The position numbers and the translations under genes are program-made. Below, one piece after another: positions 8,125-49,121 of a DNA stretch of 64,000 nt. Under the pieces are notes generated by a model, which was not told the DNA's origin, ran no database searches, and worked only from the letters and a program-made list of their open reading frames with translations. The first letter of the stretch is position 1; each line of letters starts with the position of its first letter. Source of the stretch: a virus; UHGV virus genome UHGV-0311442, one strand, 5' to 3'.

Positions 8125-8177
8125 TTTAATAGTCCTCTTTTAGGTTTGTTCAAATCAACTAAGGGTTATGTAAAAAG

Positions 8178-8657: not shown

Positions 8658-8679
8658 AACTCTGTTCCTTTAGGGAATG

Positions 8680-8717
8680 AAAATAAAAGTACCCCTTACT
8701 CCGTATAGGGTAAGGGG
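8680..8717 (-). terminator. rho-independent terminator
   Basis: hairpin CCCCTTAC...GTAAGGGG with T-run on minus strand. Confidence 0.45.
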
Positions 8718-8723
8718 TAGAGG

Positions 8724-33943: not shown

Positions 33944-36900
33944 ATGCCGAGAGAAGACGCGGCGCAGTTTAACGGTACGCTAAGCACAGCGACGTACCCT
34001 AACCGATTTAACGTGGTCATTCCGCCTGAAGGACCTTTTTATCGTATCGGATTAAAACTCACAGTAGCCGACGATACCGCGCCTAACGGACGTCGTACTC
34101 TGATTGAGGGGTTGGACTACTATTTAGGCTATTACTTTAAAGAACTCGCAGAAGCTGAGCAAGATCAGATTTACGGCGGGTTCATGTTGCTGACCGCAAC
34201 AGAAATCGAATATGAGATTTTAGGGGTAGCACGCCAGTATCGTGTACCACAATCTGAAATCGGAAAGTTCTTAGTTCGTACTGACCTGAAAGACCCACGT
34301 AACGTGGACTGGTCAGAGTTAATGGCGTATGCGCCAGTTATTCAACCCATCGATCCTCCTGCTAACTTAGAAGAAGCTATTCTGAGGGATGAGGTTGTTA
34401 AAGCGTTAAACGATATCCGTAAGAAAATCGTTCAACGTTCAACAGAGTTAGATGCAGCGTTTACCGAAGTCACTAACCTGATTTACGAGAACGGTAAAAA
34501 GGTTTTCGACGAGGAGTTATACCAACACCACCTTAATCCTAACGCACACCAGTATACGACCACTGATGTTGGTGCCCTTCCGGTTTTGGGACGTGCTGTC
34601 GACGCTACAAAAGCGTTTGGACTGACGATTGACGAATTGGCTACGCTGATGGGTTCGGCGGGTATTGAGCAATCAGACGTTGATCAGTTAATGGGTGAAG
34701 CCCTTGGTACCGTTTACGGTCGTTGGGGTAGCACAAACGGTAACGAGCTGACGTTTAAAACCGCAGGCGGACACATCATCAGTATCCGTGGTGATAAGTG
34801 GTTAATTACCTCACCGCAACCGTTGGTGATTAAAGCAGACCAGGACAACAACGAATCGGGTTTGGCGGTTGAATTTAGTGCGGGACTGAATACGCTTTGG
34901 GTGCACTCTGGGACAGAACAGGATGTATTAGCGCCGGTTTACAACTCTGTGTATTTGGTTACACCAGAAATGGTGAACATGTACCTGACGTCTGTAACGT
35001 TACTTGAAGCAAATGCCTATTTCAAACCATCAGACAGCGTAAAACCATACGGTACAGCGAAGCAGTCTAATCCGCTAACGTTGAACGCGAATATTCCCAC
35101 AGCAACCGAGTCGGTTTATGGGGTGTTTTCGATTACGAATATCGCAACCTCCGTAGCACTAGGCACTGCTATTTCCCAAAAGGCGGTGACCGAATTAAAA
35201 GACCGGTTAGACTTGTACGTTGACGATGACTACACGGTTAACGGTAAAGGGTTTGTTAAGACAGGCGATAAAATGGTGTTAACCTTAACGAAAACCGATT
35301 TCGGTATCGATAAGATGGATAACACCATGCCGATCGCTAAACCGGTAACAAAAGCGTTAGCGAATGTGCTGAAAAATAAAAGTGTGAAGGAGCACACGCA
35401 CACTACCGCCGATTTGGATAATGTCCCGATTGGTAGTGCGACTGTAGATGGTATTTTACAGTTGTGGGATGCGATTGATGCCACGAATGATAAAGCCGTC
35501 ACGTCTCGTCAAGGGTGGTTGTTCGCAAAAGAGATCAAGAAGGTTTCCGATAAACTGAATACCATCTTACCTGCGTGGACTGTCGGTGGGGCGAAGTTCG
35601 GTAACAAAAACTTCTTACCCATTCCGGCACTCGGTAATTATTCAGGTTTTACAAAGAACCAGTCCTATCAGAAAGGCGTTGTAGGATATCAACAAGGTAA
35701 AGTTTATTCGTTACGTAATGCTTCTAATGGTGTACCTGGTACAGAGGCTATTTATTACGGTTATGCTGATATCAATACGTCGAATGCATTTGAGAACCCT
35801 CAGCAAACTTCGGTGAAATACCATCCTGCTGGGATGAGTAAATATCCTGGAGTGACCTTAAAAGCTATTTTGATCGGTGGTCAGGAAGCGATTATTTGTC
35901 TGGGTTCTGACAATAACCGTTATCTGGTCTTGTTCAATGGCTCGATGGACCACAGTAAGCACACAGTGGTGTGCCGTGTTACAATGCCGAATTATCGCGA
36001 TAATAGTCCCACTGGTTCAAACGAGATTCCGTGGAATCCTCGGCCAGAATCTGACGATGTTGTTCTGGTTGACGACCACGTTTACCTTCTTCGCTCCACG
36101 GTAAATAACGCTGCTTATGCCGTGGCGGCATGGCGTTTACGTAAAGCCGATTTGTCTACTAATGTTGCGTTAGAATTTGAACGTGTAACGTTAAATGGTG
36201 AAATGGGACAATTCGGAGATAACCTCTGCCTAAGAATTGGCCAGAAGACCGAAGAGTCGCAGACTGGTCAATTCTTCACGTATTACCCACCCGAGGCACG
36301 GGCTAAATGGACAATCGGTCACAACTTTGTCCATGGTCCAGAATGTAACCATGCTTGTGCGGTGCGTGACAGTGTGATTCGTGTGAATCATGTACCCACT
36401 GTGTGGTTTGCGGCTGCCGACGGTTCGACGATTAATTTCCGTCAATGGTCAACAAGTTTCACAATCGATACGTTAACGGGTAGAGTTACGTTGGAGGGTG
36501 CCGAACGTTTCCCCATTAAGGCTGATACTACCACACTGACGTTCGCGGATGGTTCAACTGTAGAAACCAGTCGTAAGTGGGGCGGTGGTCAAGCAAACAA
36601 TCGTTGTTTTGCAACGTATGCTAAACCTAACGGCACCGGAATGATGCTTTCCTGTTGGCAGGTTAACGATGCGGACCAGATGCCGAATGTTTCTATTAAA
36701 GGAACGCAAGGCAAAGAGTTTTTCGATTATTTGCGTTACGATAACCCGAACAATACCTCAGGCGAAGGAACGTTTACTTGGGATAAAGGCCGTGGTTCTA
36801 TCTATACCATCGGTCTTTCTCATCCTGTCGGTATCGGTGGTTCGAATAAGGTTTGGCTATCCAATCCACGCAACCGTTATACGATCGAAGTAGAAGTTGA

Positions 36901-39127
36901 CCCAAGTAAACCTTATGACGTTCCTGGATATAGCGGTTATGGCCCGAACAACAACCGTCGAGAAGTTGATGCAACCCTTTACGAACAGTTAAGCTGTATG
37001 GCTGCTTGCATGACTCCAGAGGAGCGTCACGGCCAGTTAAACGGTTGGTATTTGACGAAAGCGGAAACCTTCCCATATCGAAACATCTACGGTAACTTTG
37101 CCCTGTCATCAGAACGGCTGACGTTAGAGGAAGCGGATCGCCAGAAGATGATTAGGATGATTGTCGATGGTGCACCATCTGGTCAGGCAAACGGTTACGC
37201 GAACGAGCGCATCAGCGCAGCACACCAAAGCGGTAACGCGTTGTTTGCGCTCTGGTTGCTAGGCATTAACACTGTTTGTGAGTTCGACTTATTACAAGTC
37301 TCATGCATGAAAATCTTGAGTAACGGACGTCGAGTTCTCGACATCTATTATTTCATGGTGAGTCCGACTAAAGAAAACGGTTATCTACGTTTTAACTCGG
37401 CTACTTTCAAACTCGTTGATTGGTTCTTAGACCTTGATTACGGCTTAAGTTATCAGTCTCTGAGGGAAGAAGCGGGTAATAAAACGCGACGTGTAGGCCA
37501 GCCAATTTTTGCTTCTGCCGACGGTGTAAACTTCGGTCTATGGCTACCTTATACGCTGACAATACGGAATATCGGGGACCTAAATGCTTTGGGTTACGCT
37601 GCGAAGTATACCTTCGACCCTGGGTCGGGTTGGACTCGCGTTCCCGGTAAGTCACAATTGCGTCGGATGGCCCCTGCTCATAATCCCGAAACAGGCTGCT
37701 ACATGGGTGCGGGTAATTGGGACAAGATGGCACTAATTTTCTCTAAAGCAGATCGTGTCTTCTGTTCAGGTAACGCATATACAGCCGAAGAGTTCGTTAA
37801 TGACACCAGATTCACAACTGGGGGACAGGCGGTTATTATCGCTGGTGTGGAAACTGCCGAAGGTTGGATTCTATATTTGACGGAAGAGGTCAGGTTAGAT
37901 TTCGGTAGTAATAGCTATACATTACCGACGTGGTTGGTGGATTTAAGCAATGAATTCCCAGAAAACCATGCTAACCAGACGTTCTATGTTCATGCTGCTC
38001 TTGTAGGTTCGAAAGCTCAATATCAGATCGGTCTGGAAAAGCTGCCGGATACGAGTTCGCGATTATTTGTTGGTACAGTTACAACCGATAAAAAGCGCAT
38101 AGTTGCTATTAACATCGATAAAGTGAAACGGTTAGGCAGGGTTCGTGAATTAGAAGAACACGCTGCTGTTAGAGATCAGCACGACGTTGCAGCGGCGTAC
38201 GATCGAAAAACGGGTCCACTCCAAACCTTGGTTAACCAACCGCTGAAAGCCCCCACGGCATCTGCGGGCAAGGGTGCAGGGTATGCCGATGGTCAGAGAT
38301 GGAATGCGTTGACCGGGATCACAACACGTCCCAAACTGCCGATACAGGAAACCTACGCAGGTTATAAAAGTATCGGTAGAGTAGCGTATGAGAACTGCGC
38401 TGATCAGTTCTGGCAGAAAGCGGTCGCTGCAAACGTTGCAGCGGCTACTGCGTCTGAGAACAGTCAAGCGGCAGCCGCGAACATGAAGTGGTTGGGCGCG
38501 TATACGAAACCGACTACAGGTGCGAATGCATATCTGGCGCTGAGTCTGCGTGTTAAAGTGCCTGGTAATCCCGGCACCGCTAATCGTAGACTAAAAATCA
38601 GGCTTGCGGCTCCGACAGGTATAACCCAAGTTCGTTACGGGTTAAACCAGTCTGGTGGCACGATGACTGAACAGACAGTAACGTTAACTGCTAACAGTTA
38701 TCTGGAAAAAGAACACGCCGGATTTAAGCCAGCCGAAGAAGTCCGTGTACATGCTACGTTTGTCATTCCAAAAAATGAATACGATAGCTACCGTACGAAG
38801 TTCGGTGCTGTTCAGCTGATTGACGTTGAGTCGAACACTGTCATTAAACAGACAGATATCGACACACCGTTTATCGTGTATACCGACACGGAGTTAGCAG
38901 CGCAATCTGGTTTGGTGTATAAAGCGGTTAAGGGTCAGTTCCATCAACTCCCGTCTCAACCTGTCGTCATTGTAACTGATGGACAGACAGGGACTACGCC
39001 ACCGGTGAAAACCTCGTTTGCTGACGGGACATTAACGGTCTACGTGGCAACCACGTACGATGCGGTTAACCCAGCACAAACCCGCGATATCGATAAGCTC
39101 CAGTTCAATCTTATGTTTACATCTTAA
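33944..39127 (+). CDS. tail fibre / receptor-binding protein (1727 aa)
   Basis: shares N-terminal GPFY...DYxLxY module; largest ORF of the operon. Confidence 0.6.
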   Translation: MPREDAAQFNGTLSTATYPNRFNVVIPPEGPFYRIGLKLTVADDTAPNGRRTLIEGLDYYLGYYFKELAEAEQDQIYGGFMLLTATEIEYEILGVARQYRVPQSEIGKFLVRTDLKDPRNVDWSELMAYAPVIQPIDPPANLEEAILRDEVVKALNDIRKKIVQRSTELDAAFTEVTNLIYENGKKVFDEELYQHHLNPNAHQYTTTDVGALPVLGRAVDATKAFGLTIDELATLMGSAGIEQSDVDQLMGEALGTVYGRWGSTNGNELTFKTAGGHIISIRGDKWLITSPQPLVIKADQDNNESGLAVEFSAGLNTLWVHSGTEQDVLAPVYNSVYLVTPEMVNMYLTSVTLLEANAYFKPSDSVKPYGTAKQSNPLTLNANIPTATESVYGVFSITNIATSVALGTAISQKAVTELKDRLDLYVDDDYTVNGKGFVKTGDKMVLTLTKTDFGIDKMDNTMPIAKPVTKALANVLKNKSVKEHTHTTADLDNVPIGSATVDGILQLWDAIDATNDKAVTSRQGWLFAKEIKKVSDKLNTILPAWTVGGAKFGNKNFLPIPALGNYSGFTKNQSYQKGVVGYQQGKVYSLRNASNGVPGTEAIYYGYADINTSNAFENPQQTSVKYHPAGMSKYPGVTLKAILIGGQEAIICLGSDNNRYLVLFNGSMDHSKHTVVCRVTMPNYRDNSPTGSNEIPWNPRPESDDVVLVDDHVYLLRSTVNNAAYAVAAWRLRKADLSTNVALEFERVTLNGEMGQFGDNLCLRIGQKTEESQTGQFFTYYPPEARAKWTIGHNFVHGPECNHACAVRDSVIRVNHVPTVWFAAADGSTINFRQWSTSFTIDTLTGRVTLEGAERFPIKADTTTLTFADGSTVETSRKWGGGQANNRCFATYAKPNGTGMMLSCWQVNDADQMPNVSIKGTQGKEFFDYLRYDNPNNTSGEGTFTWDKGRGSIYTIGLSHPVGIGGSNKVWLSNPRNRYTIEVEVDPSKPYDVPGYSGYGPNNNRREVDATLYEQLSCMAACMTPEERHGQLNGWYLTKAETFPYRNIYGNFALSSERLTLEEADRQKMIRMIVDGAPSGQANGYANERISAAHQSGNALFALWLLGINTVCEFDLLQVSCMKILSNGRRVLDIYYFMVSPTKENGYLRFNSATFKLVDWFLDLDYGLSYQSLREEAGNKTRRVGQPIFASADGVNFGLWLPYTLTIRNIGDLNALGYAAKYTFDPGSGWTRVPGKSQLRRMAPAHNPETGCYMGAGNWDKMALIFSKADRVFCSGNAYTAEEFVNDTRFTTGGQAVIIAGVETAEGWILYLTEEVRLDFGSNSYTLPTWLVDLSNEFPENHANQTFYVHAALVGSKAQYQIGLEKLPDTSSRLFVGTVTTDKKRIVAINIDKVKRLGRVRELEEHAAVRDQHDVAAAYDRKTGPLQTLVNQPLKAPTASAGKGAGYADGQRWNALTGITTRPKLPIQETYAGYKSIGRVAYENCADQFWQKAVAANVAAATASENSQAAAANMKWLGAYTKPTTGANAYLALSLRVKVPGNPGTANRRLKIRLAAPTGITQVRYGLNQSGGTMTEQTVTLTANSYLEKEHAGFKPAEEVRVHATFVIPKNEYDSYRTKFGAVQLIDVESNTVIKQTDIDTPFIVYTDTELAAQSGLVYKAVKGQFHQLPSQPVVIVTDGQTGTTPPVKTSFADGTLTVYVATTYDAVNPAQTRDIDKLQFNLMFTS

Positions 39128-39167
39128 CGCCACGAGACAAGGACGTCTCGGATTAAGGAGAGTGGCC

Positions 39168-40367
39168 ATGGCCTCCATTGTATATCAGTACCCTTTAGAT
39201 TTAACGGGAACCCTAACCTCTAACGCCGTGGAGCGTCAGGTTACGTTAGGTACAGGTAAAGTTAACCGTGCGTTTGCTTTTCCTGACGGACCGTTTTATG
39301 CTGATACGTTCCGCTTGCGGGTTGCCAATCGACCCGACGCGACGTATGAACGCGGAACGGACTATGAGTTGATTTTTGCACACCCGGGTTACGAGAAATT
39401 GACGAAGAACCGGGAAGTGGTAATGGCGGTTGTTGTAACGAACACCGCGATTCCGACCGATATCACGGTATCGGCGCAAGTAGTCGGTGGTCCGCAGTCT
39501 GCAAACGTGACTGCGATAGAACAGGCGATTGCCGAGTTGAATCTCGATAATCGAACTGTTGGCTTTAAAGACTTGCGAAATGTGCCGGACACGTTTCCTT
39601 CGGCACCAACGTATAAAGACGTCGGCGATATTTACGGCTTCGAATATATCATTACAGTGCTCGCTGGCATCAAAGATGCGATAACGGCGGGTGATGCTGT
39701 ACAGCTTGAGAACATCAAAGCGATTCTCGAAAGCCTGAAAAACGATTTCCTGGACGCGCTGAACGCGCACATTAACGCCACGGGTAATGTCCACCATCTG
39801 GATATTCATCAGGTTAACGGGTTAACAGAAACGGAGATCCGTGCACTTATCCGTGACGTACAATCTGCCATCGATGCAACCATTACTGATATTAATGCGT
39901 TGAAGAAAGCAGACGAAGCGTTAGGAAAACGTATTGATGCTGTTGTCAAATCTTTGGAAGCGTGGAACGACCAACTTAACATCGTTGCCCAAAACTACCA
40001 GAAGATGGCATTGGCATTGGCGAACCTAAATTCGCTAGTGTTACAGTTACAGAAAAATATCAACGATCTGAACACCAAACTCAACCAAGCGATTCAGCGC
40101 ATTGCTGCGTTAGAACAACGGGGTAATGAGTCCGATCAGAAAATTGATAATCTGCAACAAAACCTGGATGCGCTTAAACAACAGGTTGCGAATAACACGA
40201 ACGCAATCAGTCAGGCGAATCAGAACCTACAAAACCATATTGCGGCGGATAACCCGCACACAGGTTATCTCCACAAGAAATACGGCGGTGTGGTTCAGGC
40301 TCCAGTGCACGTTAACGCTAACTTGACGTCCCGTGATGACGTTCAGGCAGAAGCGGGTACGAAATAA
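39168..40367 (+). CDS. tail fibre-associated protein with C-terminal coiled coil (400 aa)
   Basis: start re-set to ATG 39168 with AAGGAGAG RBS; N-terminal FPDGPFY...DYELIF module; heptad-like Q/N/L-rich C-terminus. Confidence 0.55.
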   Translation: MASIVYQYPLDLTGTLTSNAVERQVTLGTGKVNRAFAFPDGPFYADTFRLRVANRPDATYERGTDYELIFAHPGYEKLTKNREVVMAVVVTNTAIPTDITVSAQVVGGPQSANVTAIEQAIAELNLDNRTVGFKDLRNVPDTFPSAPTYKDVGDIYGFEYIITVLAGIKDAITAGDAVQLENIKAILESLKNDFLDALNAHINATGNVHHLDIHQVNGLTETEIRALIRDVQSAIDATITDINALKKADEALGKRIDAVVKSLEAWNDQLNIVAQNYQKMALALANLNSLVLQLQKNINDLNTKLNQAIQRIAALEQRGNESDQKIDNLQQNLDALKQQVANNTNAISQANQNLQNHIAADNPHTGYLHKKYGGVVQAPVHVNANLTSRDDVQAEAGTK

Positions 40368-40434: not shown

Positions 40435-40830
40435 ATGGCGATCAGTGTTAAAAATGTACGTGACCGAATCACCAACGTAGAGAACCAAATGGCAACTGGC
40501 CCACGTGTTGATCCGCAAGTTGCGTCGAAAGCACATAATGCCGCCGACACTTTTTCGGGTTGGACGCCAAGTCGGTTAGACTGCGGGGGAAGCTGTAGCT
40601 GGACGTGCTCAAACGGTTGTACGCATGGCTGTACGAGTTGTTCGGGCACCTGTACGTCGGTGTGTGTAGGTAGCTGCTCCTCTGCGTGCGGTAACCAGTG
40701 TACTGGATGTAGTTCAACGTGTTCTGGTGGCTGTTCAGGTTGCAGTGGGACCTGTGGAGGTGCTTGCTCGGGCCGTTGTTCTACGGGTTGTTCTGGTGCT
40801 TGCTCCGGTGGCTGTTCTGGCCCAACCTAA
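40435..40830 (+). CDS. Cys-rich repeat peptide precursor A (leader + (C-x3)n core, ~21 Cys)
   Basis: AAGGA RBS; N-terminal ~50 aa ordinary sequence then DCGGSCSWTCSNGCTHGCTSCSGTC... of only C/S/G/T/N/A/V. Confidence 0.6.
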   Translation: MAISVKNVRDRITNVENQMATGPRVDPQVASKAHNAADTFSGWTPSRLDCGGSCSWTCSNGCTHGCTSCSGTCTSVCVGSCSSACGNQCTGCSSTCSGGCSGCSGTCGGACSGRCSTGCSGACSGGCSGPT

Positions 40831-40840
40831 GAGGTGAAAA

Positions 40841-41239
40841 ATGGCAATTGGATTACCTGCGCTACAAGCGCGGCTAAATAACATTGACAACACTGCATTG
40901 AAGAATACGGGTGCAGTACAAAACTATATTCGTGGGAAAGCGACGAACAACGCAGACCTATTCGGTGGGCAAGCTCGCAACCACTATGACTGCGGGGGAA
41001 GCTGTAGCTGGACCTGTTCGAGCTGTTCTGGTGGTTGTACAGGGAACGCATCAGGCGGCTGTGGCTCTTCCTGTTCTGCAAACTGTGTATCAGGTTGTAG
41101 CGCGGGCTGTAGTGGATGTTCGAATACCTGTTCTGGTGGCTGCTCAGGAAGCTGTACGGGGAGTTGTTCTAACTCGTGTGTAGGAAACTGTTCTGCAGGC
41201 TGCTCTGGTGCTTGCTCCGGTGGCTGTTCTGGGAGGTAA
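40841..41239 (+). CDS. Cys-rich repeat peptide precursor B
   Basis: AGAGGTGA RBS; leader shares NADLFGG and YDCGGSCSWTCS junction with A; CxxxC repeats. Confidence 0.6.
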   Translation: MAIGLPALQARLNNIDNTALKNTGAVQNYIRGKATNNADLFGGQARNHYDCGGSCSWTCSSCSGGCTGNASGGCGSSCSANCVSGCSAGCSGCSNTCSGGCSGSCTGSCSNSCVGNCSAGCSGACSGGCSGR

Positions 41240-41241
41240 TT

Positions 41242-41448
41242 GTGATTAGCCTTAAGAACCTTCGTGATCGGTTAGTAACAGCGGAAGGGTATATTACGAC
41301 CGCTAACGCAAACAACTATATTGCAAACCAGGGCACCGTGTCTTCAACCAATAACCTTGCCGGTTTACCTTTAAGCCATTATAACTGTAACGGCGGATGT
41401 AGCTGGTCGTGCAGTGGTAGCTGTAGTAAAGGTGCGGGGGGAAGGTAA
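41242..41448 (+). CDS. Cys-rich peptide precursor C (short core), GTG start
   Basis: GGGAGG 5 nt before GTG at 41242; ISLKNLRDRL leader resembling A; core YNCNGGCSWSCSGSCSKGAGGR. Confidence 0.5.
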   Translation: MISLKNLRDRLVTAEGYITTANANNYIANQGTVSSTNNLAGLPLSHYNCNGGCSWSCSGSCSKGAGGR

Positions 41449-41597
41449 CTAAGCCCTCCAGTGGTAGTATGTCTATTACGCAATAACCGAGTTAATCGTA
41501 CGGGTTTACTACTGAGTTTCAAGTTACCGGTAGGCAATGGTGCGGTGGTTTCTATACCCTGAATGTCCGTTTGACCGTGAAATAATTGGAGCAATCA

Positions 41598-42485
41598 ATG
41601 AAGAATGATTTACATTTAGCGTACAAAACAATTTTCAATCATCCACTTCACATTTCTTCCCCTGATTCCGTACGTGCACACTTAGCAGATGAAGTTCGTC
41701 TGTTGACTCAGTTGCCGGGCGAATGGCCTAAAGTGCGCGGACGTTTCTTTACCGATCGTAAAAACTATCGTGTGGAAAATACGTTTAAGATTCGTGATCT
41801 GACGGCAGAAAGTGTAGTGGTCTTTACCGGTGACTCCGAGTTGCGTGGTAAACTGGTTGCGGGTAAATATTTCTTTAGTGACGGGATTTTGAATAACTCC
41901 GTAGATATGGAATTGTTCTTTACCCCATTTGAAGAAATGGGCGCAAAACCAGTTGCCCGTCGTTGGTGGTCGCCGGATTACTTAGGCTCGTTCCCGTATT
42001 TCTTTACCCTGGTAACACCAGAAACGAAGAACTATTTCGATACGGAATCGTATATCGAAATTGAAGGGTACGAAGCGTTAGGGATTAATTGCTTAGCGGA
42101 TTTAATGGCGTATAGCTATAAGTTCGTGTGGGATCGTGAACGTTCCGTGTGGGTTGCCCTGACGGATGAACACGAAATTACAAAACGCATCCGTAAGCCT
42201 TGGATGCAGCATTTGATTCAAACGCGTATTGGCGAGCATCCGTCAACAGAAGCGGATCTGGCAAAACTCGTTAGTTTCTTAATGACGAAAGTCACGTTAA
42301 CTGACGAAGAGAAAGCAGCAGTGTCGGCGGTGTTGGACCGTAACGTAACGTTAGCGGATTTAGAACGTTTAAATGTCCGTTATAAAGACCTTAATCGTAT
42401 TTTGGAAGCGTATAACTCTCCATTCTTGTTAACCCCTGGTGCTAACGTAGACGACGATCCTTTGTTCGCCATTGATTATATTTAA
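41598..42485 (+). CDS. hypothetical protein (295 aa), cassette accessory
   Basis: GGAG RBS before ATG 41598; sits between precursor genes and radical SAM genes. Confidence 0.5.
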   Translation: MKNDLHLAYKTIFNHPLHISSPDSVRAHLADEVRLLTQLPGEWPKVRGRFFTDRKNYRVENTFKIRDLTAESVVVFTGDSELRGKLVAGKYFFSDGILNNSVDMELFFTPFEEMGAKPVARRWWSPDYLGSFPYFFTLVTPETKNYFDTESYIEIEGYEALGINCLADLMAYSYKFVWDRERSVWVALTDEHEITKRIRKPWMQHLIQTRIGEHPSTEADLAKLVSFLMTKVTLTDEEKAAVSAVLDRNVTLADLERLNVRYKDLNRILEAYNSPFLLTPGANVDDDPLFAIDYI

Positions 42486-42506
42486 AAACGACCGGAGTCA
42501 CCTGCA

Positions 42507-43430
42507 ATGACAACCAATGCAGAACCAAGGTTATCGAATCGTTTATACGATAAACCCACCGTATTGTCCGTAGTCGCTACGTCCAAGTGTAACCTGGATT
42601 GTAGCTTCTGCGGTGGAGCCTATTACATGAATCGTGAAGATTCTCCGCGAGAGTTTCAACGTGAGCGAATTTTGGAAGCGCTGGAAGCTAATCCAACCAT
42701 TACCGAAATTCAGTGGACGGGTGGTGAGCCATTACTGGCAACCCGTAAAATTGAGGCGTTTGTTGACGAATTAAAAGTGATTCGTCCAGAACTCAAACAC
42801 CAGTTGTATACCAATGGCTTAAAGATGCGTAAATCGCATCTCCCGTTGCTAAAACAGTTTGACAATGTCTACGTTAGCATCGATGGGTTTAAGTCGTCTG
42901 AGCGCCCGTTTATGCGCTTTATTGACGAAGGCTGTTACGAAGCACTGGAAACGATCTACGAGCTGGATAATGTCCAGACTTGGGGTGTCCTGACACGGGA
43001 CCGTTTAGGGGACAAACGCTGGCACGAAGATATTATTCAGCTGCACAGCGCGATTTACCATTACGGTTTCCGTGCAATGACGTTACTCTTAGATGCGAAA
43101 ATGCCAAAACCTTTATCGCCTGACCACGTCATGAACTTTATTTACGGCTACTATCAGGTTCAGGACAACATTGAACGTCTGAATGTAGTAAATGGACGTG
43201 AATGTGGCTTTACGGTAAGTAAAGTGTTTGAAGAAGGGTGTAACGTTTGCAGCGAAAGTCTTTGGATTAATGCAGACGGTGGTGAGCACCAACTCCAGAA
43301 TGCACCTAACGTTCTGGAATCGGGATGTAACCAACTGGCCTTCTCTATCGGTGTAGAGGCGTACGAATATATTCGTCGCGTAGTGATGGCAGGACGTAAT
43401 AGAGGGGCGGCAAATGAGCCAAGCAAATGA
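42507..43430 (+). CDS. radical SAM enzyme (307 aa)
   Basis: CNLDCSFCGG (CxxxCxxC) and GGEPLL SAM-binding motif; extra C-terminal Cys (CNVCSE...GCNQ). Confidence 0.7.
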   Translation: MTTNAEPRLSNRLYDKPTVLSVVATSKCNLDCSFCGGAYYMNREDSPREFQRERILEALEANPTITEIQWTGGEPLLATRKIEAFVDELKVIRPELKHQLYTNGLKMRKSHLPLLKQFDNVYVSIDGFKSSERPFMRFIDEGCYEALETIYELDNVQTWGVLTRDRLGDKRWHEDIIQLHSAIYHYGFRAMTLLLDAKMPKPLSPDHVMNFIYGYYQVQDNIERLNVVNGRECGFTVSKVFEEGCNVCSESLWINADGGEHQLQNAPNVLESGCNQLAFSIGVEAYEYIRRVVMAGRNRGAANEPSK

Positions 43431-44736
43431 ATTCCCTAAGCAGTTAACGTATCAGATCGTAACCAACCTTTCGTGTAACCTGGACTGCGAATATTGTTAC
43501 GAACGTAAGTACCCGCGTAACAACAAAGCGGCCGACATTGTTGATTTCTTACACGCCTGTTTTGAACGTGATAAAAACGAACCGAATGTTGAAGTTATTA
43601 TCGACATTATCGGCGGTGAACCGTTCATGCAGCCTAAGTTGCTGCTGGCAGCGTTTGAAACCGCAGAGCAGTTGTGTAAAGAACACAACCGTCCGTTTAT
43701 GTTTAGTATCTCCACGAACGGGACCTTGTTAGATCGTCCGTTGAACCGTGAGATTGTAGAACGTTGGAAAGACAAACTTTCGGTTGGGGTTTCGATTGAT
43801 GGCTTGCCTGAGTCCCATGACCGTTATCGTATCTTCACAACAACGCGCCAGGGTTCTTACGAAGCCGCAGTACGTGGCTATAATTACTTAAAAGAGGTTG
43901 GCATTGCAGAACTCGGCGTAAAAGCGACCTTTACGTTAGAAACACTGCCGTTCTATGCTGCAGGGATGAAGTCATTAATTGACATTACTGGCGGTGGGAC
44001 AATTTCTGGGAACGTAACCTTCGAAGACGTTATGCCACGTAGCATGGCGACGTCAATCGCTTTACAGATGATGGATGTGATAGATTATTGGGTTGAGAAA
44101 GGATTACACACCAACCCACGTAATATCTTATCGCACATCATTCCAGAAGGGTTGGATTTCGATACGATTTGGGAACCGAACTGGCGTGACCAGTTACTGT
44201 ATAATGACACCGTACGGTTGAACCCAGAACGTTTACGTCCGTTCTGTGGGACGTTAACGCACATGACGTGCTTAGGATTTGACCGTAAGATCTTTGGCTG
44301 TAACCGCTTTATGTCAACGGTAACGTCGCGTTCTGCGGTGTTTGAGTTGGTAGGTCGGGAATTCGTCAGTCTGGACAACGGTAAATTGTTAGAAGAGATT
44401 CAAACGCAATATACCAACTACCCAGAGACCTGTTTAGGTTGTCCGATGAAACACGCTTGTGGTAGCTGTGCGGCGGCTTCTTACGAGAACGGGGAAGGAA
44501 CGTTAGAAGACCGTAAAGCGTATCACGCTGAACGTCGTCAGTGTGGCTGGACGACAGCGAAACTGATGGTGGCGGAATACTGGAAACAGAAGATGGGTAC
44601 GACGTCAGCAAAAGCGTTCCACGACACGAGCATGTGTTATTGCCCACGCTGTGTTCGTGAACGTGCCCAAAAGGAAAAATTATTAAGAGAAGCCAAAGAT
44701 GAAACCAATTCTGATCAACAATATTACGAAGCGTAG
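43414..44736 (+). CDS. radical SAM enzyme with SPASM-like C-terminal domain (440 aa)
   Basis: CNLDCEYCYE and GGEPF motifs; C-terminal CLGCPMKHACGSC cluster typical of SPASM/twitch auxiliary Fe-S domains; 17-nt overlap with upstream gene. Confidence 0.7.
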   Translation: MSQANEFPKQLTYQIVTNLSCNLDCEYCYERKYPRNNKAADIVDFLHACFERDKNEPNVEVIIDIIGGEPFMQPKLLLAAFETAEQLCKEHNRPFMFSISTNGTLLDRPLNREIVERWKDKLSVGVSIDGLPESHDRYRIFTTTRQGSYEAAVRGYNYLKEVGIAELGVKATFTLETLPFYAAGMKSLIDITGGGTISGNVTFEDVMPRSMATSIALQMMDVIDYWVEKGLHTNPRNILSHIIPEGLDFDTIWEPNWRDQLLYNDTVRLNPERLRPFCGTLTHMTCLGFDRKIFGCNRFMSTVTSRSAVFELVGREFVSLDNGKLLEEIQTQYTNYPETCLGCPMKHACGSCAAASYENGEGTLEDRKAYHAERRQCGWTTAKLMVAEYWKQKMGTTSAKAFHDTSMCYCPRCVRERAQKEKLLREAKDETNSDQQYYEA

Positions 44737-45271
44737 AATTCGACTTCTGGATAAGTTTCTGGAAAACAGTAAGCTATTCGGTTGTTATGTGGTGATTAAC
44801 GGTGAAGATTTTACCGATGACGTAAAACGCTTACTGATTCGTCACGGTGTGACTGTAATCATCCCAATGTACTGCACCGAACTTACTGACCTGTCGGTCG
44901 CGGAAATTGAAAAACGTAACCCAGGGTTTGAAGAACGGGTATTGGATTTCCCACGTCACAAAATTGCGTTTCTACGCCGCTCTTTAAGCGAACCCAGCGC
45001 AGAATCTATCACTGTGTTGGCATTGTCCTTCCCCGGCATTACTATCTTCGCAACACGTAACCCGAACTCACCGATTGATGGGTTTTACGATGAGCGAGAG
45101 AAATTTAATACCGTGATTTTTCCTGAGCTAACGCCAGAAGAATGCCAGGGTATCCGTATCGATTGGGAATCGGACTTCGACACAAGATTCCGTCATATCG
45201 ATTTTGAACTGTTAATCGAATTAGGGTTGATTAAAGGAGACGATGAATGTCTGCTACTGGTGAAGGCTTAA
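44699..45271 (+). CDS. hypothetical protein (190 aa), cassette accessory
   Basis: ORF track; overlaps preceding gene by 38 nt. Confidence 0.45.
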   Translation: MKPILINNITKRRIRLLDKFLENSKLFGCYVVINGEDFTDDVKRLLIRHGVTVIIPMYCTELTDLSVAEIEKRNPGFEERVLDFPRHKIAFLRRSLSEPSAESITVLALSFPGITIFATRNPNSPIDGFYDEREKFNTVIFPELTPEECQGIRIDWESDFDTRFRHIDFELLIELGLIKGDDECLLLVKA

Positions 45272-45918
45272 CGAAAGAAGAAATCCGTCGCCGTTATTTT
45301 GCGCACGATTTACCGATTGACCGTCATGGTAACTACATGGAGAAAATCGGTAGTGAAGATCACGGCCGTACAGGGTTTTGTGCGTTACTGCACTATAAGT
45401 TGATTGATGGGATGTCTGATCGCGAAGCATTGGAACAAATGCGTAACTACGACATGTCTGAAATCGAAGCACGGTTTACGCTACAGAAAGCGAAAGACTT
45501 TGTTAACGACACGTTGGGGATTGACCTGGAAGAAATTCGTGCAGGTTTACGTTCCACGGTGCGGTACATCTTTACCGATGTTCAGAAAATTCTAAGCGCT
45601 CTGGAATTCCGTTATCAGGATGCGCGCTATGCTGAGATTCAGGTAGGTGATTTCACTTTCCAGGCAGATGAGAAGTCACAGGTAGCACTGAGTCGTTATA
45701 TCCAGTCAGAAACTGCGCCAGCGTATTGGTTAACGGCTAACAACACCCGTATCGAACCGTTTACGTTAGAACAGTGCAAGACGTTGCTGGCAGCAATCGT
45801 TGAGCGCGATCAAAGACTACACCACGCAATGTCTGAGCAGAAAAGAGAAGTCAGAGCTTGGGCTGAAGCACGTGATTACGATTCAATTAAAGCGTTTGCG
45901 TTAGAGCAAGGGCTGTAA
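45247..45918 (+). CDS. hypothetical protein (223 aa), cassette accessory
   Basis: GGAG RBS; last gene before bidirectional terminator. Confidence 0.5.
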   Translation: MSATGEGLTKEEIRRRYFAHDLPIDRHGNYMEKIGSEDHGRTGFCALLHYKLIDGMSDREALEQMRNYDMSEIEARFTLQKAKDFVNDTLGIDLEEIRAGLRSTVRYIFTDVQKILSALEFRYQDARYAEIQVGDFTFQADEKSQVALSRYIQSETAPAYWLTANNTRIEPFTLEQCKTLLAAIVERDQRLHHAMSEQKREVRAWAEARDYDSIKAFALEQGL

Positions 45919-45926
45919 TCGACAGC

Positions 45927-45982
45927 GAAAAAAAATAGTATACCTACCTCCTATTACGGGAGGTAGGTATTTTTATTTTTTC
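45927..45982. terminator. bidirectional rho-independent terminator
   Basis: hairpin TACCTACCTCC-tattacg-GGAGGTAGGTA flanked by A8 and TTTTTATTTTTT. Confidence 0.65.
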
Positions 45983-46513
45983 TTAGGACGTAAAACCGTC
46001 CAGCTCACCGTTGGTGGTGGCCAGGTCAATACGATTATCAACAACTTTCGGCGTAATTACGAAAGTTGCCATTACACCTGGTTTATAACGGAGGTTCTTT
46101 TCAGTAACGGTGCACGTTACCGTACGCAGAGTGACGTTTTCATGTTCGTCTTTCTGGTCTTCGGTGTTGTACACAACGTCGCCTGGTGCGATAGCATCGT
46201 TCGGTTTAACTTTATTGATGTAATATTGTAACCAAGCGCGCAGTTCATTTTCTTGAACCCAGCGAGACAGATCGTCAGTTAGTTCAATACGGCCTACAAC
46301 ACCCGGTTCCAGACGATCGTAATGCAGTTCGATTGCACCTTTGAAATTCTCAGAACCTGGTAGTGCAGTCATGGTAACTTTGGTATTCTTACCTTCGCCT
46401 TCCAGCGCAGTAGGGAGACCAAAGGACACTTCTTTATCAGTTACCTGATGTGGTAGCTCAGTGTTAGCAGCATTATAAAGCGCGACCAACATCATCTGGT
46501 TAGTAGCGGCCAT
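45983..46513 (-). CDS. five-member paralog family protein (176 aa)
   Basis: shares N-terminal pattern and ENFKG...HYxRL core with 46579..47109; similar to 49774, 50264, 61107. Confidence 0.55.
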   Translation of the reverse strand: MAATNQMMLVALYNAANTELPHQVTDKEVSFGLPTALEGEGKNTKVTMTALPGSENFKGAIELHYDRLEPGVVGRIELTDDLSRWVQENELRAWLQYYINKVKPNDAIAPGDVVYNTEDQKDEHENVTLRTVTCTVTEKNLRYKPGVMATFVITPKVVDNRIDLATTNGELDGFTS

Positions 46514-46578: not shown

Positions 46579-47109
46579 TTATTCTTTAGGAGACGGTGCG
46601 GTGAAGCCATCCAGTTCACCTTCCAAACCGCTCAGTGCTACTTTCTCAGGAGCCGGAGGAGTAACTTTATACGTCGCGACAGTACCAGGCAGGAACTTCA
46701 AGTGGCCAGCCACAACCGTTACCACGTAAATGGTTTTGCCTTCTTCTTCACGAGAAATAGTTTGCAGGTCGTTTTCACCGAACTCGTCATCGGTGTACCC
46801 TTTCTCAGCCATGGCTGCGTTAACTTTCGCCAGGATCTTCGTTGGTGAATCGAAATCGGTAGTAGGTGCAGTTACTTCAACTTCACCAACGATGTCGCAG
46901 GAAAGACGAGTATAGTGGAATTCTTTCTCGCCTTTGAAGTTCTGGCTTTCTGCCTTGGCGGTCAGAGTAATTTTAGTGTTGCGGCCAGCTTCTCCGGTGA
47001 ACTCAGCGACAGCACTAAAATTAACATCATTTACAGTCAACTTAGAAGCAGTTTGGTTGTTTTTAGCAATTACAATCTCGATAAGCTGCTGTTGAAAAGT
47101 TTTAGCCAT
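46579..47109 (-). CDS. five-member paralog family protein (176 aa)
   Basis: TKITLTAKAESQNFKGEKEFHYTRL aligns with TKVTMTALPGSENFKGAIELHYDRL in neighbour. Confidence 0.55.
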   Translation of the reverse strand: MAKTFQQQLIEIVIAKNNQTASKLTVNDVNFSAVAEFTGEAGRNTKITLTAKAESQNFKGEKEFHYTRLSCDIVGEVEVTAPTTDFDSPTKILAKVNAAMAEKGYTDDEFGENDLQTISREEEGKTIYVVTVVAGHLKFLPGTVATYKVTPPAPEKVALSGLEGELDGFTAPSPKE

Positions 47110-47248: not shown

Positions 47249-47728
47249 ATGCTAAAACGTTTTCTACTTGTTGTAACTGCAGCACTTTCGTTGGCAAGCT
47301 GTGCCCTACAACCCACCGCTAACGGTCAATTCTCGACTGTACCCGTAGAGCCACACGACATGGTTATTTACACCTGTATGGGTGTTGAGCAAGATTTTGC
47401 AAATTACAAACCTGTCGTCAGTTCGACTAACCTAATGTTAGGTTCAGTAACTGTAGTCGATACTGGTGCTAACTGGGTAGCCACTTGGCCAAACGGTAAG
47501 ATTGAATCACCACAACTTTATAAAGATCTATTAGGTAAAGTTAATGGGAATATCGATCCTATCACGGGACAACGTTACTACCGTGTAAATGGACTACTTT
47601 CAAAAACGCCAACATTTGCGTATTCTACTTTAGAATATAAAACGGGCGATGGTAAAGGCATTACTTTCTTCCACTGTAAGGAAGGTGTAGCTCCTGACAG
47701 TGGAACAATGCTCCATCCTGCGGAATAA
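47249..47728 (+). CDS. lipoprotein (159 aa)
   Basis: signal peptide with lipobox LASC (MLKRFLLVVTAALSLASC); own terminator; opposite strand to neighbours. Confidence 0.6.
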   Translation: MLKRFLLVVTAALSLASCALQPTANGQFSTVPVEPHDMVIYTCMGVEQDFANYKPVVSSTNLMLGSVTVVDTGANWVATWPNGKIESPQLYKDLLGKVNGNIDPITGQRYYRVNGLLSKTPTFAYSTLEYKTGDGKGITFFHCKEGVAPDSGTMLHPAE

Positions 47729-47846: not shown

Positions 47847-48362
47847 TTAAATCTCGACTAAAGCGCTCCAATCGATTGGTTTTTGCTTAACCACTTTCAC
47901 AGTACCACGATTTGGTGACCAGAAAGTAATGTTAGGTTGATTACGAACGTCGATGTGTAACCAGCTGATGTCACATTCAATAAAGTGAATGAACGGAAAC
48001 TCATCAGGGTTAGCAGCGATATAGTCGTGAACCTGTTTTACGGTGCTATCCAACAACGTTGCATCAATTGCGTTACCGAATTTGTGTTGACTTCCTGAAT
48101 CGGCGTAAAGCTGTAACGCACGTTGTTTATAACTACCGCCCTTAGGCTTTTCTTGATTAATAAAGAAATCTAAAGTTCTTAGTCCGCGTTGTTGCGCAGC
48201 GGTTGAGTTAATCACCATTCTACCGAAACGGTTACGAATCTGTTGCAGTGAAATCATTAGCAACGGGTTCATAAACCGGATTGCAGAATCGCCGTATTTG
48301 GCAATATAAGACTGTGGTACTAACTCTCTGAGTTTAAAATTACTCGGATTTGGATGAAACAT
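47847..48362 (-). CDS. peptidase M15-family cell-wall peptidase
   Basis: SGSQHKFGNAIDA and WLHIDVR motifs (zinc ligands of M15 D,D-/L,D-peptidases); GGGAGGGAAG RBS. Confidence 0.6.
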   Translation of the reverse strand: MFHPNPSNFKLRELVPQSYIAKYGDSAIRFMNPLLMISLQQIRNRFGRMVINSTAAQQRGLRTLDFFINQEKPKGGSYKQRALQLYADSGSQHKFGNAIDATLLDSTVKQVHDYIAANPDEFPFIHFIECDISWLHIDVRNQPNITFWSPNRGTVKVVKQKPIDWSALVEI

Positions 48363-49005
48363 CTTCCCTCCCAGACAGAAAAGCGCGTTTGATGTTCAGG
48401 TATTTGACATTAACGGGCTGATCTGTGGTGATATCAATACGTTCGTGGTCAGGGATTGCAGGTTCCTTAAACTCGCGAACGAATAAATAGTTTCGATTAT
48501 AATCTAACGTACGAAACGCGTTAGTGTTGTAGGATGGCTTTGCATTAGGATCTACGTAGGAATCCCAGCCGAATTCAACGACGGCCTTATAAAATGTTTG
48601 GCAGATATAAGGTGAGATTTCCAACGACTGCATAATACGCAGGAACGTTAAATCAGAGAACTCTTTATCGATAATACGCGAAACGTTACCACCCGGTGTC
48701 ATGGGATAGCTACGCTCCGTGTTACATTTTTGATAGAGTAGGTCGTGAATGCAGGCCGCAGGTGCCCACGGTCCGTCAGGATGGAAAATTCCCTGGAGGT
48801 GTTCAGGAATTGACGCTAAATCGGTAACGAACCCTTTCGGTGCTGTTAACCACAGTTGCGTGTCAGGCAATACACCCGTTAAATAAACCGCACGGTCTAA
48901 GTGTACGTGGTCGTGATAAATCTCACGTAACGTAAACGGATAATGGTAATCCTCCGTTAATACAAACCACTTATTGTCTAAACGTTTATATTGAAACTTC
49001 TCCAT
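48340..49005 (-). CDS. DUF1353-like protein
   Basis: TDLASIPEHLQGIFHPDGPWAPAACIHDLLY resembles the DUF1353 D-x-AS-x-P...HD pattern; start re-set to ATG 49005. Confidence 0.4.
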   Translation of the reverse strand: MEKFQYKRLDNKWFVLTEDYHYPFTLREIYHDHVHLDRAVYLTGVLPDTQLWLTAPKGFVTDLASIPEHLQGIFHPDGPWAPAACIHDLLYQKCNTERSYPMTPGGNVSRIIDKEFSDLTFLRIMQSLEISPYICQTFYKAVVEFGWDSYVDPNAKPSYNTNAFRTLDYNRNYLFVREFKEPAIPDHERIDITTDQPVNVKYLNIKRAFLSGREDVSSKSE

Positions 49006-49121
49006 TACCCACACCTTCCCTTATAGAAACCAGAAAAATTCGCATCCACGCTTTTCGTCTTTACGTTTTCGTCCAGACGTTAACGCTTTCCACAATAGTG
49101 CTAAGAGTTTAGCAAACCAGT

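What the first reader, a model, noticed from the sequence alone, without database searches (positions are those of the whole stretch)
41598..45918. Three unknown proteins flanking the radical SAM genes
The 295-aa gene sits between the precursors and the first radical SAM gene; the 190- and 223-aa genes overlap each other and the second radical SAM gene. None shows recognisable motifs by eye. Tight overlaps suggest coupled expression with the enzymes; they may supply recognition, proteolysis or immunity.
Basis: inference. Interest (0 to 1): 0.5.

Follow-up and report, generated by a model that had tools for sequence, protein, structure and literature searches.

The report
Phage radical-SAM module helper proteins
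Three conserved genes of a giant Salmonella-type phage are helpers attached to a pair of radical-SAM enzymes that probably cross-link small cysteine-rich, tail-fibre-like proteins: one has a fold matching nothing known, one looks like a 'dead' copy of the enzyme fold, and one carries a known tail-fibre chaperone domain.

Summary
Three real genes under purifying selection lie at 41598-42485 (295 aa), 44699-45271 (190 aa) and 45247-45918 (223 aa). They sit in one operon with three Cys-rich CXXX-repeat genes and two radical-SAM (rSAM) genes, in an SPN3US-like jumbo phage.

- **p295:** a confident model with no structural relative. No catalytic-type residue is conserved. A profile search found distant homologues in 11 gene contexts; an rSAM1-type gene is adjacent in every one, and CXXX genes lie upstream wherever the contig reaches.
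- **p190:** it directly follows the SPASM-type rSAM2 in every context where that region is present. Its model is an rSAM-like partial barrel without the CxxxCxxC motif, so it is a likely pseudo-enzyme partner.
- **p223:** an N-terminal domain that co-varies with the module, fused to a DUF4376 tail-fibre chaperone domain. It is confined to the SPN3US-like lineage.

Both rSAMs lack the N-terminal recognition domain of their nearest solved relatives. The module usually lies beside fibre genes, and in one contig the CXXX repeats form the C-terminus of a fibre-like protein.

My best reading is that the three proteins are non-virion maturation and assembly factors for rSAM-cross-linked fibre-like proteins. 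Coupling to the enzymes is supported. Protease and immunity roles are not. Recognition is plausible, but no RRE fold was found.

The parts
33944..39127 (+). Large baseplate/fibre protein (1727 aa), orthologue of SPN3US gp168; upstream context of the operon
   Evidence: ORF. SPN3US gp168 is a tail-associated virion protein described as a baseplate/fibre candidate (PMC5694885 and PMC5105663).
39165..40367 (+). gp167-family virion (tail) protein, about 400 aa, coiled coil; the family recurs beside the module in other lineages
   Evidence: phrog_2163 at 8e-103. SPN3US gp167 was detected in virions. Family members neighbour the module in L021 and L038.
40435..40830 (+). CysA: Cys-rich CXXX-repeat protein (131 aa), presumed rSAM substrate
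   Evidence: phrog_6085 at 1.6e-40; weak TIGR04114 CXXX-repeat hit; sequence.
40841..41239 (+). CysB: second CXXX-repeat protein (132 aa)
   Evidence: phrog_6085 at 2.5e-39; TIGR04114 at 19.4 bits against a cut-off of 20.
41242..41448 (+). CysC: short paralogue (68 aa, GTG start) with the leader-like N-terminus and only the first 'Y-x-C-x-G-G-C-S-W' motif; it lies upstream of the p295/rSAM1 pair in every context with sequence there
   Evidence: Start codon and GGGAGG ribosome site; phrog_6085 at 4e-24; conserved position.
41598..42485 (+). p295 (SPN3US gp165 orthologue): orphan-fold, apparently non-enzymatic partner of rSAM1
42507..43430 (+). rSAM1 (307 aa): radical SAM enzyme with CxxxCxxC and three conserved C-terminal Cys; no N-terminal recognition domain
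   Evidence: PF04055 at 6e-14; conserved Cys; nearest solved relatives TigE, SkfB and CteB align from about residue 92-111 of those chains.
43414..44736 (+). rSAM2 (440 aa): radical SAM/SPASM enzyme, nearest to the PapB and CXXX-repeat maturase families; no N-terminal recognition domain
   Evidence: NCBIfam PapB 1.2e-33 and TIGR04115 6.5e-33, both below their cut-offs; SPASM cysteines conserved; CteB 5wgg aligns from its residue 106.
44699..45271 (+). p190 (SPN3US gp162 orthologue): rSAM-like (beta/alpha)6 partial barrel without the Fe-S motif; presumed pseudo-enzyme partner of rSAM2
45247..45546 (+). p223 N-terminal domain (about residues 1-100): co-varies with the module; possible counterpart of the 93-aa protein that ends the module in L016
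   Evidence: hhalign probability 75%, E 2.5e-5, colinear end to end. Its distance matrix tracks p295, rSAM1 and rSAM2 at r 0.95-0.96.
45616..45879 (+). p223 C-terminal DUF4376 domain (residues 124-211): tail-fibre chaperone family
   Evidence: PF14301 at 4.8e-11, 43.5 bits against a cut-off of 25. DUF4376 proteins V22 gp27, A5 gp9 and the CJIE1 protein act as fibre chaperones.
45940..45970 (.). Bidirectional intrinsic terminator that closes the operon
   Evidence: 13-bp stem followed by a T-run on both strands.

Best explanation
The three genes are accessory, non-virion components of a phage-borne maturation module. In that module two radical-SAM enzymes post-translationally cross-link small Cys-rich CXXX-repeat proteins that behave like miniature tail fibres. 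(1) p295 is a non-enzymatic protein with an orphan fold that works with rSAM1. Because rSAM1 has no recognition domain of its own, p295 most likely binds the leader-like N-terminal part of the precursors and presents them to the enzyme. The short precursor CysC and the shared C-x-G-x-C-S-W motif are the likeliest targets. (2) p190 is a decayed radical-SAM-type partial barrel that has lost the iron-sulfur motif. It works with the SPASM enzyme rSAM2 as a pseudo-enzyme subunit, acting as a scaffold or substrate clamp for the long CXXX repeat. (3) p223 is a two-domain adaptor found only in SPN3US-like phages. Its N-terminal domain belongs to the module, and its C-terminal DUF4376 domain is a tail-fibre chaperone that helps the matured proteins, or the neighbouring large fibre, to fold and assemble. 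Shown: the genes are real; the families co-occur with the rSAM genes and keep their order next to them; the fold assignments; DUF4376 membership; absence from SPN3US virions. Inferred: physical partnerships, the binding roles, thioether-type chemistry, and a fibre destination for the product.
Against: No physical interaction was tested or modelled. No RRE-like fold was found in p295 or p190, and sequence tests for an RRE in the p223 N-domain were negative. TIM-like partial barrels are common, hhalign sees no sequence relation between p190 and the phage's own rSAMs, and only three of the five AF2 models of p190 were confident. In L014-L017 the module is not next to recognisable fibre genes. The annotated Cys-rich protein gp166 was not seen in SPN3US virions, which argues against a structural product. 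That evidence is weak: two of the three Cys-rich genes are unannotated, and the Cys-rich cores of the phage's own proteins contain no Lys and at most one Arg, so trypsin would yield almost no detectable peptides. Most co-occurrence comes from one lineage; about ten contexts are independent. The mirror-tree signal is not a formal test.
Confidence: 0.55

Rival explanations
1. Classical RiPP cluster. The Cys-rich proteins are precursors of a diffusible peptide (bacteriocin, signal or metal binder). The three unknowns would supply the RRE-type leader recognition element, the leader protease, and immunity or export.
For: The precursors have a conserved leader-like N-terminus and a repetitive Cys-rich core. 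rSAM2 is nearest to ranthipeptide and CXXX-repeat RiPP maturases. Both rSAMs lack their own recognition domain. In L014-L017 the module has no fibre neighbours. By eye, the small terminal proteins and the p223 N-domain have a PqqD-like pattern.
Against: No RRE, protease or transporter fold or family was detected. p295 has no conserved catalytic residues. There are no membrane segments and no defence or immunity hits. One helper carries a fibre chaperone domain. In L018 the CXXX repeat is the C-terminus of a fibre-like protein.
Confidence: 0.15
2. Ordinary tail-fibre assembly proteins. The three genes would chaperone the big fibres (gp168/gp167 family) and merely sit next to the rSAM genes because synteny is frozen in this lineage.
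For: DUF4376 in p223. The location is a fibre/lysis region. The three proteins are absent from virions, as chaperones are. Among module parts, the p223 C-domain distance matrix is the one most correlated with the gp168 C-terminus (r 0.65). p223 is absent from the module in other lineages.
Against: The p295 and p190 families are found only beside rSAM1 and rSAM2, including contexts without gp168-type fibres and with permuted order. They are not found next to fibres that lack rSAM genes: 62 of 50,697 phage genomes, all carrying the rSAM pair.
Confidence: 0.12
3. p190 and/or p295 are active enzymes that add a further modification to the precursors, such as epimerisation, decarboxylation or dehydrogenation, rather than binding partners.
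For: p190 has a TIM/rSAM-like barrel, a fold typical of enzymes, and a strongly conserved 'S-V-A-E-I-E-K-R-N-P-G-F-E' stretch within the SPN3US-like lineage. p295 has several conserved charged residues within the lineage.
Against: The conserved stretch of p190 decays in distant homologues (L014, L016, L021). p295 keeps only a few mostly hydrophobic or aromatic positions across the whole family. No enzyme family is detected by Pfam, NCBIfam or PDB sequence search.
Confidence: 0.08

Closest known systems
CXXX-repeat radical SAM peptide maturation system (NCBIfam TIGR04115 maturase with TIGR04114 / Pfam PF27846 target repeat) and the ranthipeptide maturase PapB
   Same: A SPASM-type rSAM gene sits next to genes for peptides made of Cys-x-x-x repeats. 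rSAM2's best family hits are PapB (1.2e-33) and TIGR04115 (6.5e-33). A precursor in L015 is flagged with PF27846.
   Different: Scores are far below the family cut-offs (115-117 bits against 340-350). The system is phage-borne and has two rSAM enzymes. Its precursors are 130-aa proteins with a fibre-like N-terminal part. It adds three accessory proteins (p295, p190, p223) that match no family in Pfam, NCBIfam or PADLOC, apart from the DUF4376 domain of p223. I found no published characterisation of either the bacterial or the phage system.
RRE (PqqD-like) leader-recognition domains of RiPP maturases, for example the N-terminal domain of CteB
   Same: The functional need is the same. The phage rSAMs align to CteB, TigE and SkfB only after the first 92-111 residues of those chains. 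Something else must therefore recruit the substrate, and p295 and p190 are the constant neighbours. That the CteB N-terminal domain is an RRE rests on my own knowledge, not on a tool result.
   Different: No PqqD or winged-helix signal in p295 or p190, nor by sequence in the p223 N-domain. If these proteins recognise the substrate, they do so with other folds.
DUF4376 tail-fibre chaperones (Alteromonas phage V22 gp27, A5 gp9; Campylobacter CJIE1 prophage protein downstream of the H-fibre)
   Same: p223 has the same architecture, a variable N-terminal part plus a C-terminal DUF4376 (residues 124-211 of 223, against 92-184 of 195 and 138-231 of 239). It is encoded in a fibre operon and is absent from virions.
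   Different: It is not immediately downstream of a fibre gene. It is translationally coupled to p190 and rSAM2. Its N-terminal domain co-varies with the rSAM module and may correspond to a free-standing small protein of the module in another phage.
Pseudo-radical-SAM proteins (for example NCBIfam TIGR04347 'pseudo-SAM/SPASM') and the truncated PFL-activating-enzyme domain 3CAN
   Same: p190 has an rSAM-type partial barrel without the CxxxCxxC cluster motif.
   Different: p190 is only 190 aa, has no SPASM domain and no detectable sequence similarity to any rSAM family. Its similarity is structural and rests on a predicted model.

Membership tests
DUF4376 (Pfam PF14301) tail-fibre chaperone family, for p223 | Match to the family HMM above Pfam's gathering score | tested here: met
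   43.5 bits against a cut-off of 25, E 4.8e-11, residues 124-211 covering profile positions 11-102 of 106. Precomputed PF14301 on nearly all full-length homologues.
DUF4376 (Pfam PF14301) tail-fibre chaperone family, for p223 | Architecture of a variable N-terminal part plus C-terminal DUF4376, encoded with a tail fibre gene | tested here: met
   The domain is C-terminal, as in V22 gp27 and A5 gp9. The gene is the last one in an operon that starts with the gp168/gp167 fibre genes. It is not directly adjacent to a fibre gene.
DUF4376 (Pfam PF14301) tail-fibre chaperone family, for p223 | Chaperone activity on a cognate fibre | not testable with these tools
   Needs co-expression of fibre and chaperone. 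Only the absence of the SPN3US orthologue gp161 from virions is known.
RRE / PqqD-like recognition element (PF05402), for any of the three | Sequence match to PqqD-type profiles | tested here: not met
   No PqqD hit at E up to 10 for p295, p190, p223, the p223 N-domain or the small terminal proteins.
RRE / PqqD-like recognition element (PF05402), for any of the three | Winged-helix (three strands, three helices) fold | tested here: inconclusive
Radical SAM superfamily (PF04055), for p190 | CxxxCxxC motif binding the [4Fe-4S] cluster, and a match to the family HMM | tested here: not met
   No such motif; only two conserved Cys, far apart. No Pfam or NCBIfam hit. hhalign against the phage's own rSAM1 and rSAM2 gives probability below 1%.
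Radical SAM superfamily (PF04055), for p190 | Partial (beta/alpha)6 TIM-barrel core fold | tested here: met
RiPP leader peptidase / protease, for p295 or p190 | Protease fold or a conserved catalytic dyad/triad | tested here: not met
TIGR04115/TIGR04114 CXXX-repeat rSAM system (context of the three genes) | Maturase and target repeat scoring above the NCBIfam cut-offs | tested here: not met
   rSAM2 scores 114.7 bits against 350. The best precursor scores 19.4 bits against 20. It works like this system but is not an equivalog member.
Immunity or defence-related protein | Membrane segments, or a match to known defence or immunity families | tested here: not met
   The maximum 19-residue hydropathy is 0.6-1.4. 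No PADLOC hit for the three proteins.

The most novel reading that the evidence does not exclude
Phages build small tail fibrils whose Cys-rich tips are covalently stapled by a pair of radical-SAM enzymes. That would be a ribosomally made, rSAM-cross-linked structural protein of a virion. Substrate handling would be done not by the usual RRE domain but by two new partner proteins, an orphan-fold protein for rSAM1 and a dead rSAM-like barrel for rSAM2. In SPN3US-like phages a recognition-type domain would be fused to a tail-fibre chaperone domain, handing the modified protein over to fibre assembly.
Probability: 0.3. Interest if true: 0.85.

Novelty: new variant of a known kind. Interest (0 to 1): 0.6.

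Why it matters
Radical-SAM peptide maturases are known from bacterial natural-product clusters and normally find their substrates through an RRE domain. This is a compact phage module in which both enzymes lack that domain and are always paired with two uncharacterised proteins. It offers a testable case of RRE-independent substrate recruitment and of a pseudo-rSAM subunit. The repeated placement next to fibre genes, a contig in which the CXXX repeat ends a fibre-like protein, and the fusion to a fibre chaperone domain all suggest that phages use radical chemistry to harden a receptor-binding appendage. If so, this would be a new kind of virion protein modification, relevant to host range and phage engineering. 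SPN3US already has amber mutants and virion proteomics (PMC5105663, PMC5694885), so the idea can be tested directly. The analysis also assigns a context to three PHROG families (8030, 7988, 8169) listed as 'unknown function'.

Tried and rejected
1. Pfam, NCBIfam, PHROGs and PADLOC scans of the three proteins and of distant homologues gave only DUF4376 for p223; everything else was 'unknown'.
2. Profile searches against PDB sequences found nothing for any of the three.
4. I tested whether p190 is a recent paralogue of the phage's rSAMs. hhalign was negative.
5. I tested whether the p223 N-domain is an RRE. Pfam, PDB-sequence and hhalign tests were all negative.
6. The 70-aa protein that ends the module in L014 showed no significant similarity to the p223 N-domain.
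7. SPFM5, 6, 7, 9 and 14 looked like a natural experiment without the module. I rejected this: those GenBank records are scrambled in roughly 60-nt blocks in reverse order.
8. The search for related loci with the broad alignment A9 failed because it has no conserved stretch. With A1 it found only the SPN3US-like lineage.
9. Literature searches for any description of the phage rSAM/CXXX module or of gp161-166 found nothing.
10. The 150-nt spacer before p295 has no RNA structure beyond chance.
11. Sigma-70 promoter-like sites are not enriched.


Full report
**What the window is.** The region belongs to a jumbo phage related to Salmonella phage SPN3US (genus Seoulvirus). The stretch 41.6-44.7 kb is about 72% identical in DNA to SPN3US and its relatives. 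An IMG/VR contig of 225 kb carries an identical copy of the 295-aa gene (L022).

On the + strand the genes run as follows:

- a 1727-aa baseplate/fibre protein (33944-39127; SPN3US gp168)
- a roughly 400-aa coiled-coil virion protein (39165-40367; gp167 family)
- three Cys-rich genes, CysA (40435-40830), CysB (40841-41239) and the short CysC (41242-41448)
- the 295-aa gene (41598-42485, 'p295')
- rSAM1 (42507-43430)
- rSAM2 (43414-44736)
- the 190-aa gene (44699-45271, 'p190')
- the 223-aa gene (45247-45918, 'p223')
- a strong bidirectional terminator (45940-45970)

In SPN3US numbering the three proteins are gp165, gp162 and gp161.

**Observation check.** All three ORFs exist at the stated coordinates.

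- Overlaps are 17 nt (rSAM1/rSAM2), 38 nt (rSAM2/p190) and 25 nt (p190/p223). Four of the five genes have clear ribosome sites; p190's is weak.
- Each ORF matches a PHROG family end to end.
- Each is present full length in the same 62 of 50,697 phage genomes: Seoulvirus, several Erwinia jumbo-phage genera and Cronobacter CR5.
- They evolve under purifying selection. dN/dS is 0.076 for p295 and 0.21 for p223. For p190, dS is saturated and dN is 0.14-0.44.
- p190 evolves fastest (33-53% identity across the lineage). p295 is at 46-76% and rSAM2 at 58-83%.
- The statement that none has a recognisable motif needs one correction: p223 contains Pfam DUF4376.

**p295.**

- The word-indexed search found 48 clusters, all in the same syntenic module.
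- An AlphaFold2 model from a 29-sequence alignment is confident (pLDDT 86.9, pTM 0.82). It shows an N-terminal alpha+beta domain (about residues 20-190), a C-terminal helical domain (191-272) and a conserved C-terminal 'DDPLF' tail.
- Foldseek against viral models finds only the Asesino orthologue.
- PDB-sequence and family searches are empty.
- A full HMMER profile search of 1.84 billion representatives found only 45 proteins, including distant ones that mainly conserve profile positions 160-278.
- Across this wider family the conserved positions are few and mostly hydrophobic or aromatic, with no conserved His, Ser or Cys. This argues against a protease or other enzyme.

**Context of distant p295 homologues, the key test.** I looked up eleven contexts and scored all loci with HMMs of the five proteins. 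In every case an rSAM1-type gene is adjacent to the p295 homologue, overlapping it or within about 21 nt. Wherever upstream sequence exists, CXXX-repeat genes are there, usually with a short single-motif 'CysC' gene directly before p295.

Surroundings and gene order differ between contexts:

- **L013:** CysC-rSAM1-p295.
- **L021:** rSAM2-p190-CysA-CysC-p295-rSAM1. It lies between Peptidase_S74 and tail-collar fibre genes on one side and a gp167-family gene plus an amidase on the other.
- **L014-L017:** no fibre gene in view. Neighbours include an Acb2/Tad1-like protein, a nucleotidyltransferase, a GIY-YIG nuclease, Cpn60 and thymidylate synthase.
- **L038:** rSAM1 paralogues on both sides of p295.
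- **L037:** the module follows a 973-aa Laminin_G_3 protein.
- **L018:** a J-like central fibre gene (phrog_31, 1e-23) comes first. It is followed by a 104-aa ORF with a 'GDTMTG' sequence, which I recognise from my own knowledge as typical of tail fibres. Next comes a 221-aa fibre-like protein whose C-terminus is the CXXX repeat (phrog_6085, 8.5e-4), and then p295, rSAM1 and rSAM2.

The p295 family is therefore a dedicated companion of rSAM1 and the CXXX precursors, not merely a syntenic neighbour.

**p190.**

- It has few homologues by word search, but tblastn finds it in all 62 genomes, always overlapping the end of rSAM2.
- The 172-177-aa proteins that directly follow rSAM2 in L014 and L016 are homologues (hhalign 97%, E about 1e-11; phrog_7988 8e-11 for L014). 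The L021 protein matches the p190 HMM at 2e-16 and the L038 one at 2e-49.
- The AF2 model (pLDDT 81.9; three of five models confident) is a (beta/alpha)6 unit.
- p190 has no CxxxCxxC and only two conserved, distant cysteines, one of which is lost in L016.
- No profile-level similarity to the phage's own rSAMs is detectable.
- By eye, 'YVVINGEDF' at the end of predicted strand 2 resembles the 'IDIIGGEPF' SAM-binding motif of rSAM2. This is a lead, not a test.
- I read p190 as an rSAM-like pseudo-enzyme that partners rSAM2.

**p223.**

- Residues 124-211 match DUF4376 above the Pfam threshold.
- Proteins with a C-terminal DUF4376 are experimentally supported tail-fibre chaperones. V22 gp27 is essential for active fibres. 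A5 gp9 binds its fibre and is proposed to act as a transient cap. The CJIE1 gene downstream of the H-fibre is required for receptor-binding function (PMC7289586, PMC10579305, PMC7882524).
- p223 occurs only in the SPN3US-like lineage and its distant member L038.
- The N-terminal roughly 100 residues behave differently from the C-terminal domain. The 93-aa protein that follows p190 in L016 aligns colinearly to residues 10-94 (hhalign 75%, E 2.5e-5). The 70-aa protein in L014 does not.
- In a comparison of pairwise-identity matrices over 16 loci, the N-domain tracks p295, rSAM1 and rSAM2 (r 0.95-0.96). The DUF4376 half tracks them less (0.69-0.88) and is the module part most correlated with the recombining C-terminus of gp168 (0.65). 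This is suggestive only, because the pairs are not independent.
- By eye, the N-domain has a PqqD-like pattern.

**The enzymes and the substrate.**

- rSAM2 has the rSAM motif plus a full set of SPASM cysteines. Its best family matches are the thioether-forming PapB and the CXXX-repeat maturase TIGR04115, both far below their cut-offs. Its only solved relative by sequence is CteB.
- rSAM1 is a shorter paralogue (hhalign 96.5% to rSAM2) with three conserved C-terminal cysteines.
- Both align to CteB, TigE and SkfB only from about residue 92-111 of those chains. They therefore lack the N-terminal extension, which in CteB is the leader-binding RRE (my own knowledge). This is the indirect argument that partner proteins recruit the substrate.
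- The precursors share a conserved N-terminal part ('ISLKNIRDRL...NNA..L.G') and a first motif C-x-G-x-C-S-W, followed in the long forms by about 17-20 CXXX units.
- The constant groupings CysC-p295-rSAM1 and rSAM2-p190 suggest two enzyme/partner pairs with different target motifs. This is inference.

**Virion data.** SPN3US virion proteomics lists gp160, gp167, gp168, gp169 and gp170 but none of gp161-166 (PMC5694885, Supplementary Table 1). The three proteins are thus non-structural, as expected for maturation or assembly factors. The absence of gp166 (CysB) counts against a structural product, but weakly. CysA and CysC are unannotated in SPN3US. The Cys-rich cores of the phage's own proteins also contain no Lys and at most one Arg, so tryptic detection would be poor.

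**Comparison with known systems, and novelty.** The module works like a CXXX-repeat or ranthipeptide-type rSAM maturation system but is not an equivalog of it.

- p223 is a member of DUF4376.
- p190 resembles the rSAM fold but fails the defining motif.
- p295 has no known relative.
- None of the three is detectably an RRE, a protease or an immunity protein.
- I found no publication describing this phage module or these proteins.

I rate it a new variant of a known kind. The accessory set and the link to fibres are new; the core chemistry is probably not.

**Verdict.** p223 is largely a fibre chaperone. Confidence that p295 and p190 are dedicated rSAM-module components is about 0.85. Confidence in the full mechanistic reading is about 0.55.

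Noticed in passing
L008 (LR535912.1, Salmonella phage SPFM14, 87917-107958); also SPFM1, 5, 6, 7, 8, 9, 10, 15 and 20: In these GenBank records the module's genes appear in reverse order on the same strand. Their 'proteins' are made of blocks of about 20 aa (60 nt) that each match the true protein but run in reverse block order. This looks like a scrambled deposited sequence, not biology.
   Followed up: partly
L001 (NC_027402.1, SPN3US) 7941-8339, 8353-8761, 8758-8976; L002 8050-8262 and 8497-8769 (minus strand): SPN3US RefSeq annotates only one of the three Cys-rich genes, and starts it 24 codons late (8426). CysA and CysC are unannotated. In pEa_SNUABM_29, antisense ORFs are annotated over the Cys-rich genes instead. 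Gene callers also produce spurious Val/Ala-rich ORFs in other frames of these genes, for example L014 8553-8765 and L021 6498-6824.
   Followed up: partly
L026/L027 6380-7300; L038 6667-7560: Some relatives carry an extra rSAM1 paralogue. It lies between CysA and CysB in two IMG/VR contigs and upstream of p295 in L038, so the number of rSAM genes in the module varies from 2 to 3.
   Followed up: no
L018 2083-3059: In a contig with a lambda-J-like central fibre gene, the CXXX repeat is the C-terminal end of a 221-aa fibre-like protein rather than of a free 130-aa protein. The protein may be continuous with the preceding 104-aa ORF that carries a GDTMTG sequence. The rSAM1 gene there is split by a frameshift.
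   Followed up: partly
window 43414-44736 (rSAM2 residues 408-413): Beyond the SPASM cysteines, rSAM2 has a conserved C-terminal C-x-C-x-x-C (C408, C410, C413 are invariant in 8 diverse orthologues) of unknown role.
   Followed up: no
window 45983-46513 and 46579-47109 (minus strand): These are two tandem 176-aa paralogues of the SPN3US gp160 family, an abundant virion protein (DUF7941 in relatives). Their similarity pattern is decoupled from the rSAM module: 0.93-0.97 identity to L024-L026 but 0.39 to SPN3US. This points to a recombination boundary just after the terminator.
   Followed up: partly
window 47249-47728 (+ strand): A 159-aa ORF with a lipoprotein-type signal peptide (…LSLASC) lies between the virion-protein paralogues and a 171-aa ORF (47847-48362) I did not examine, a 224-aa ORF (48340-49014, DUF1353 in relatives) and a 196-aa ORF (49122-49712, GH108-type endolysin in relatives). 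It might be a superinfection-exclusion or lysis-related protein.
   Followed up: no
window 41449-41597: The spacer between CysC and p295 is 150 nt here, against about 13-25 nt in the relatives compared (e.g. L001, L003). It has no RNA structure beyond shuffled controls (z 0.42).
   Followed up: yes
L014/L015 2684-3868 and 7633-7854: In the phage where the module has no fibre neighbours, it sits near an Acb2/Tad1-hairpin-family protein (an anti-defence sponge family) and a separate 394-aa rSAM protein with a 'GCPMGCSFC' motif that I did not characterise further.
   Followed up: no
P0049, P0005, P0007: Near-identical copies of these phage proteins are deposited under Salmonella enterica genome assemblies, for example serovar Kedougou on a 226-kb contig. 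Jumbo phages of this type seem to be carried along in bacterial isolate assemblies.
   Followed up: no
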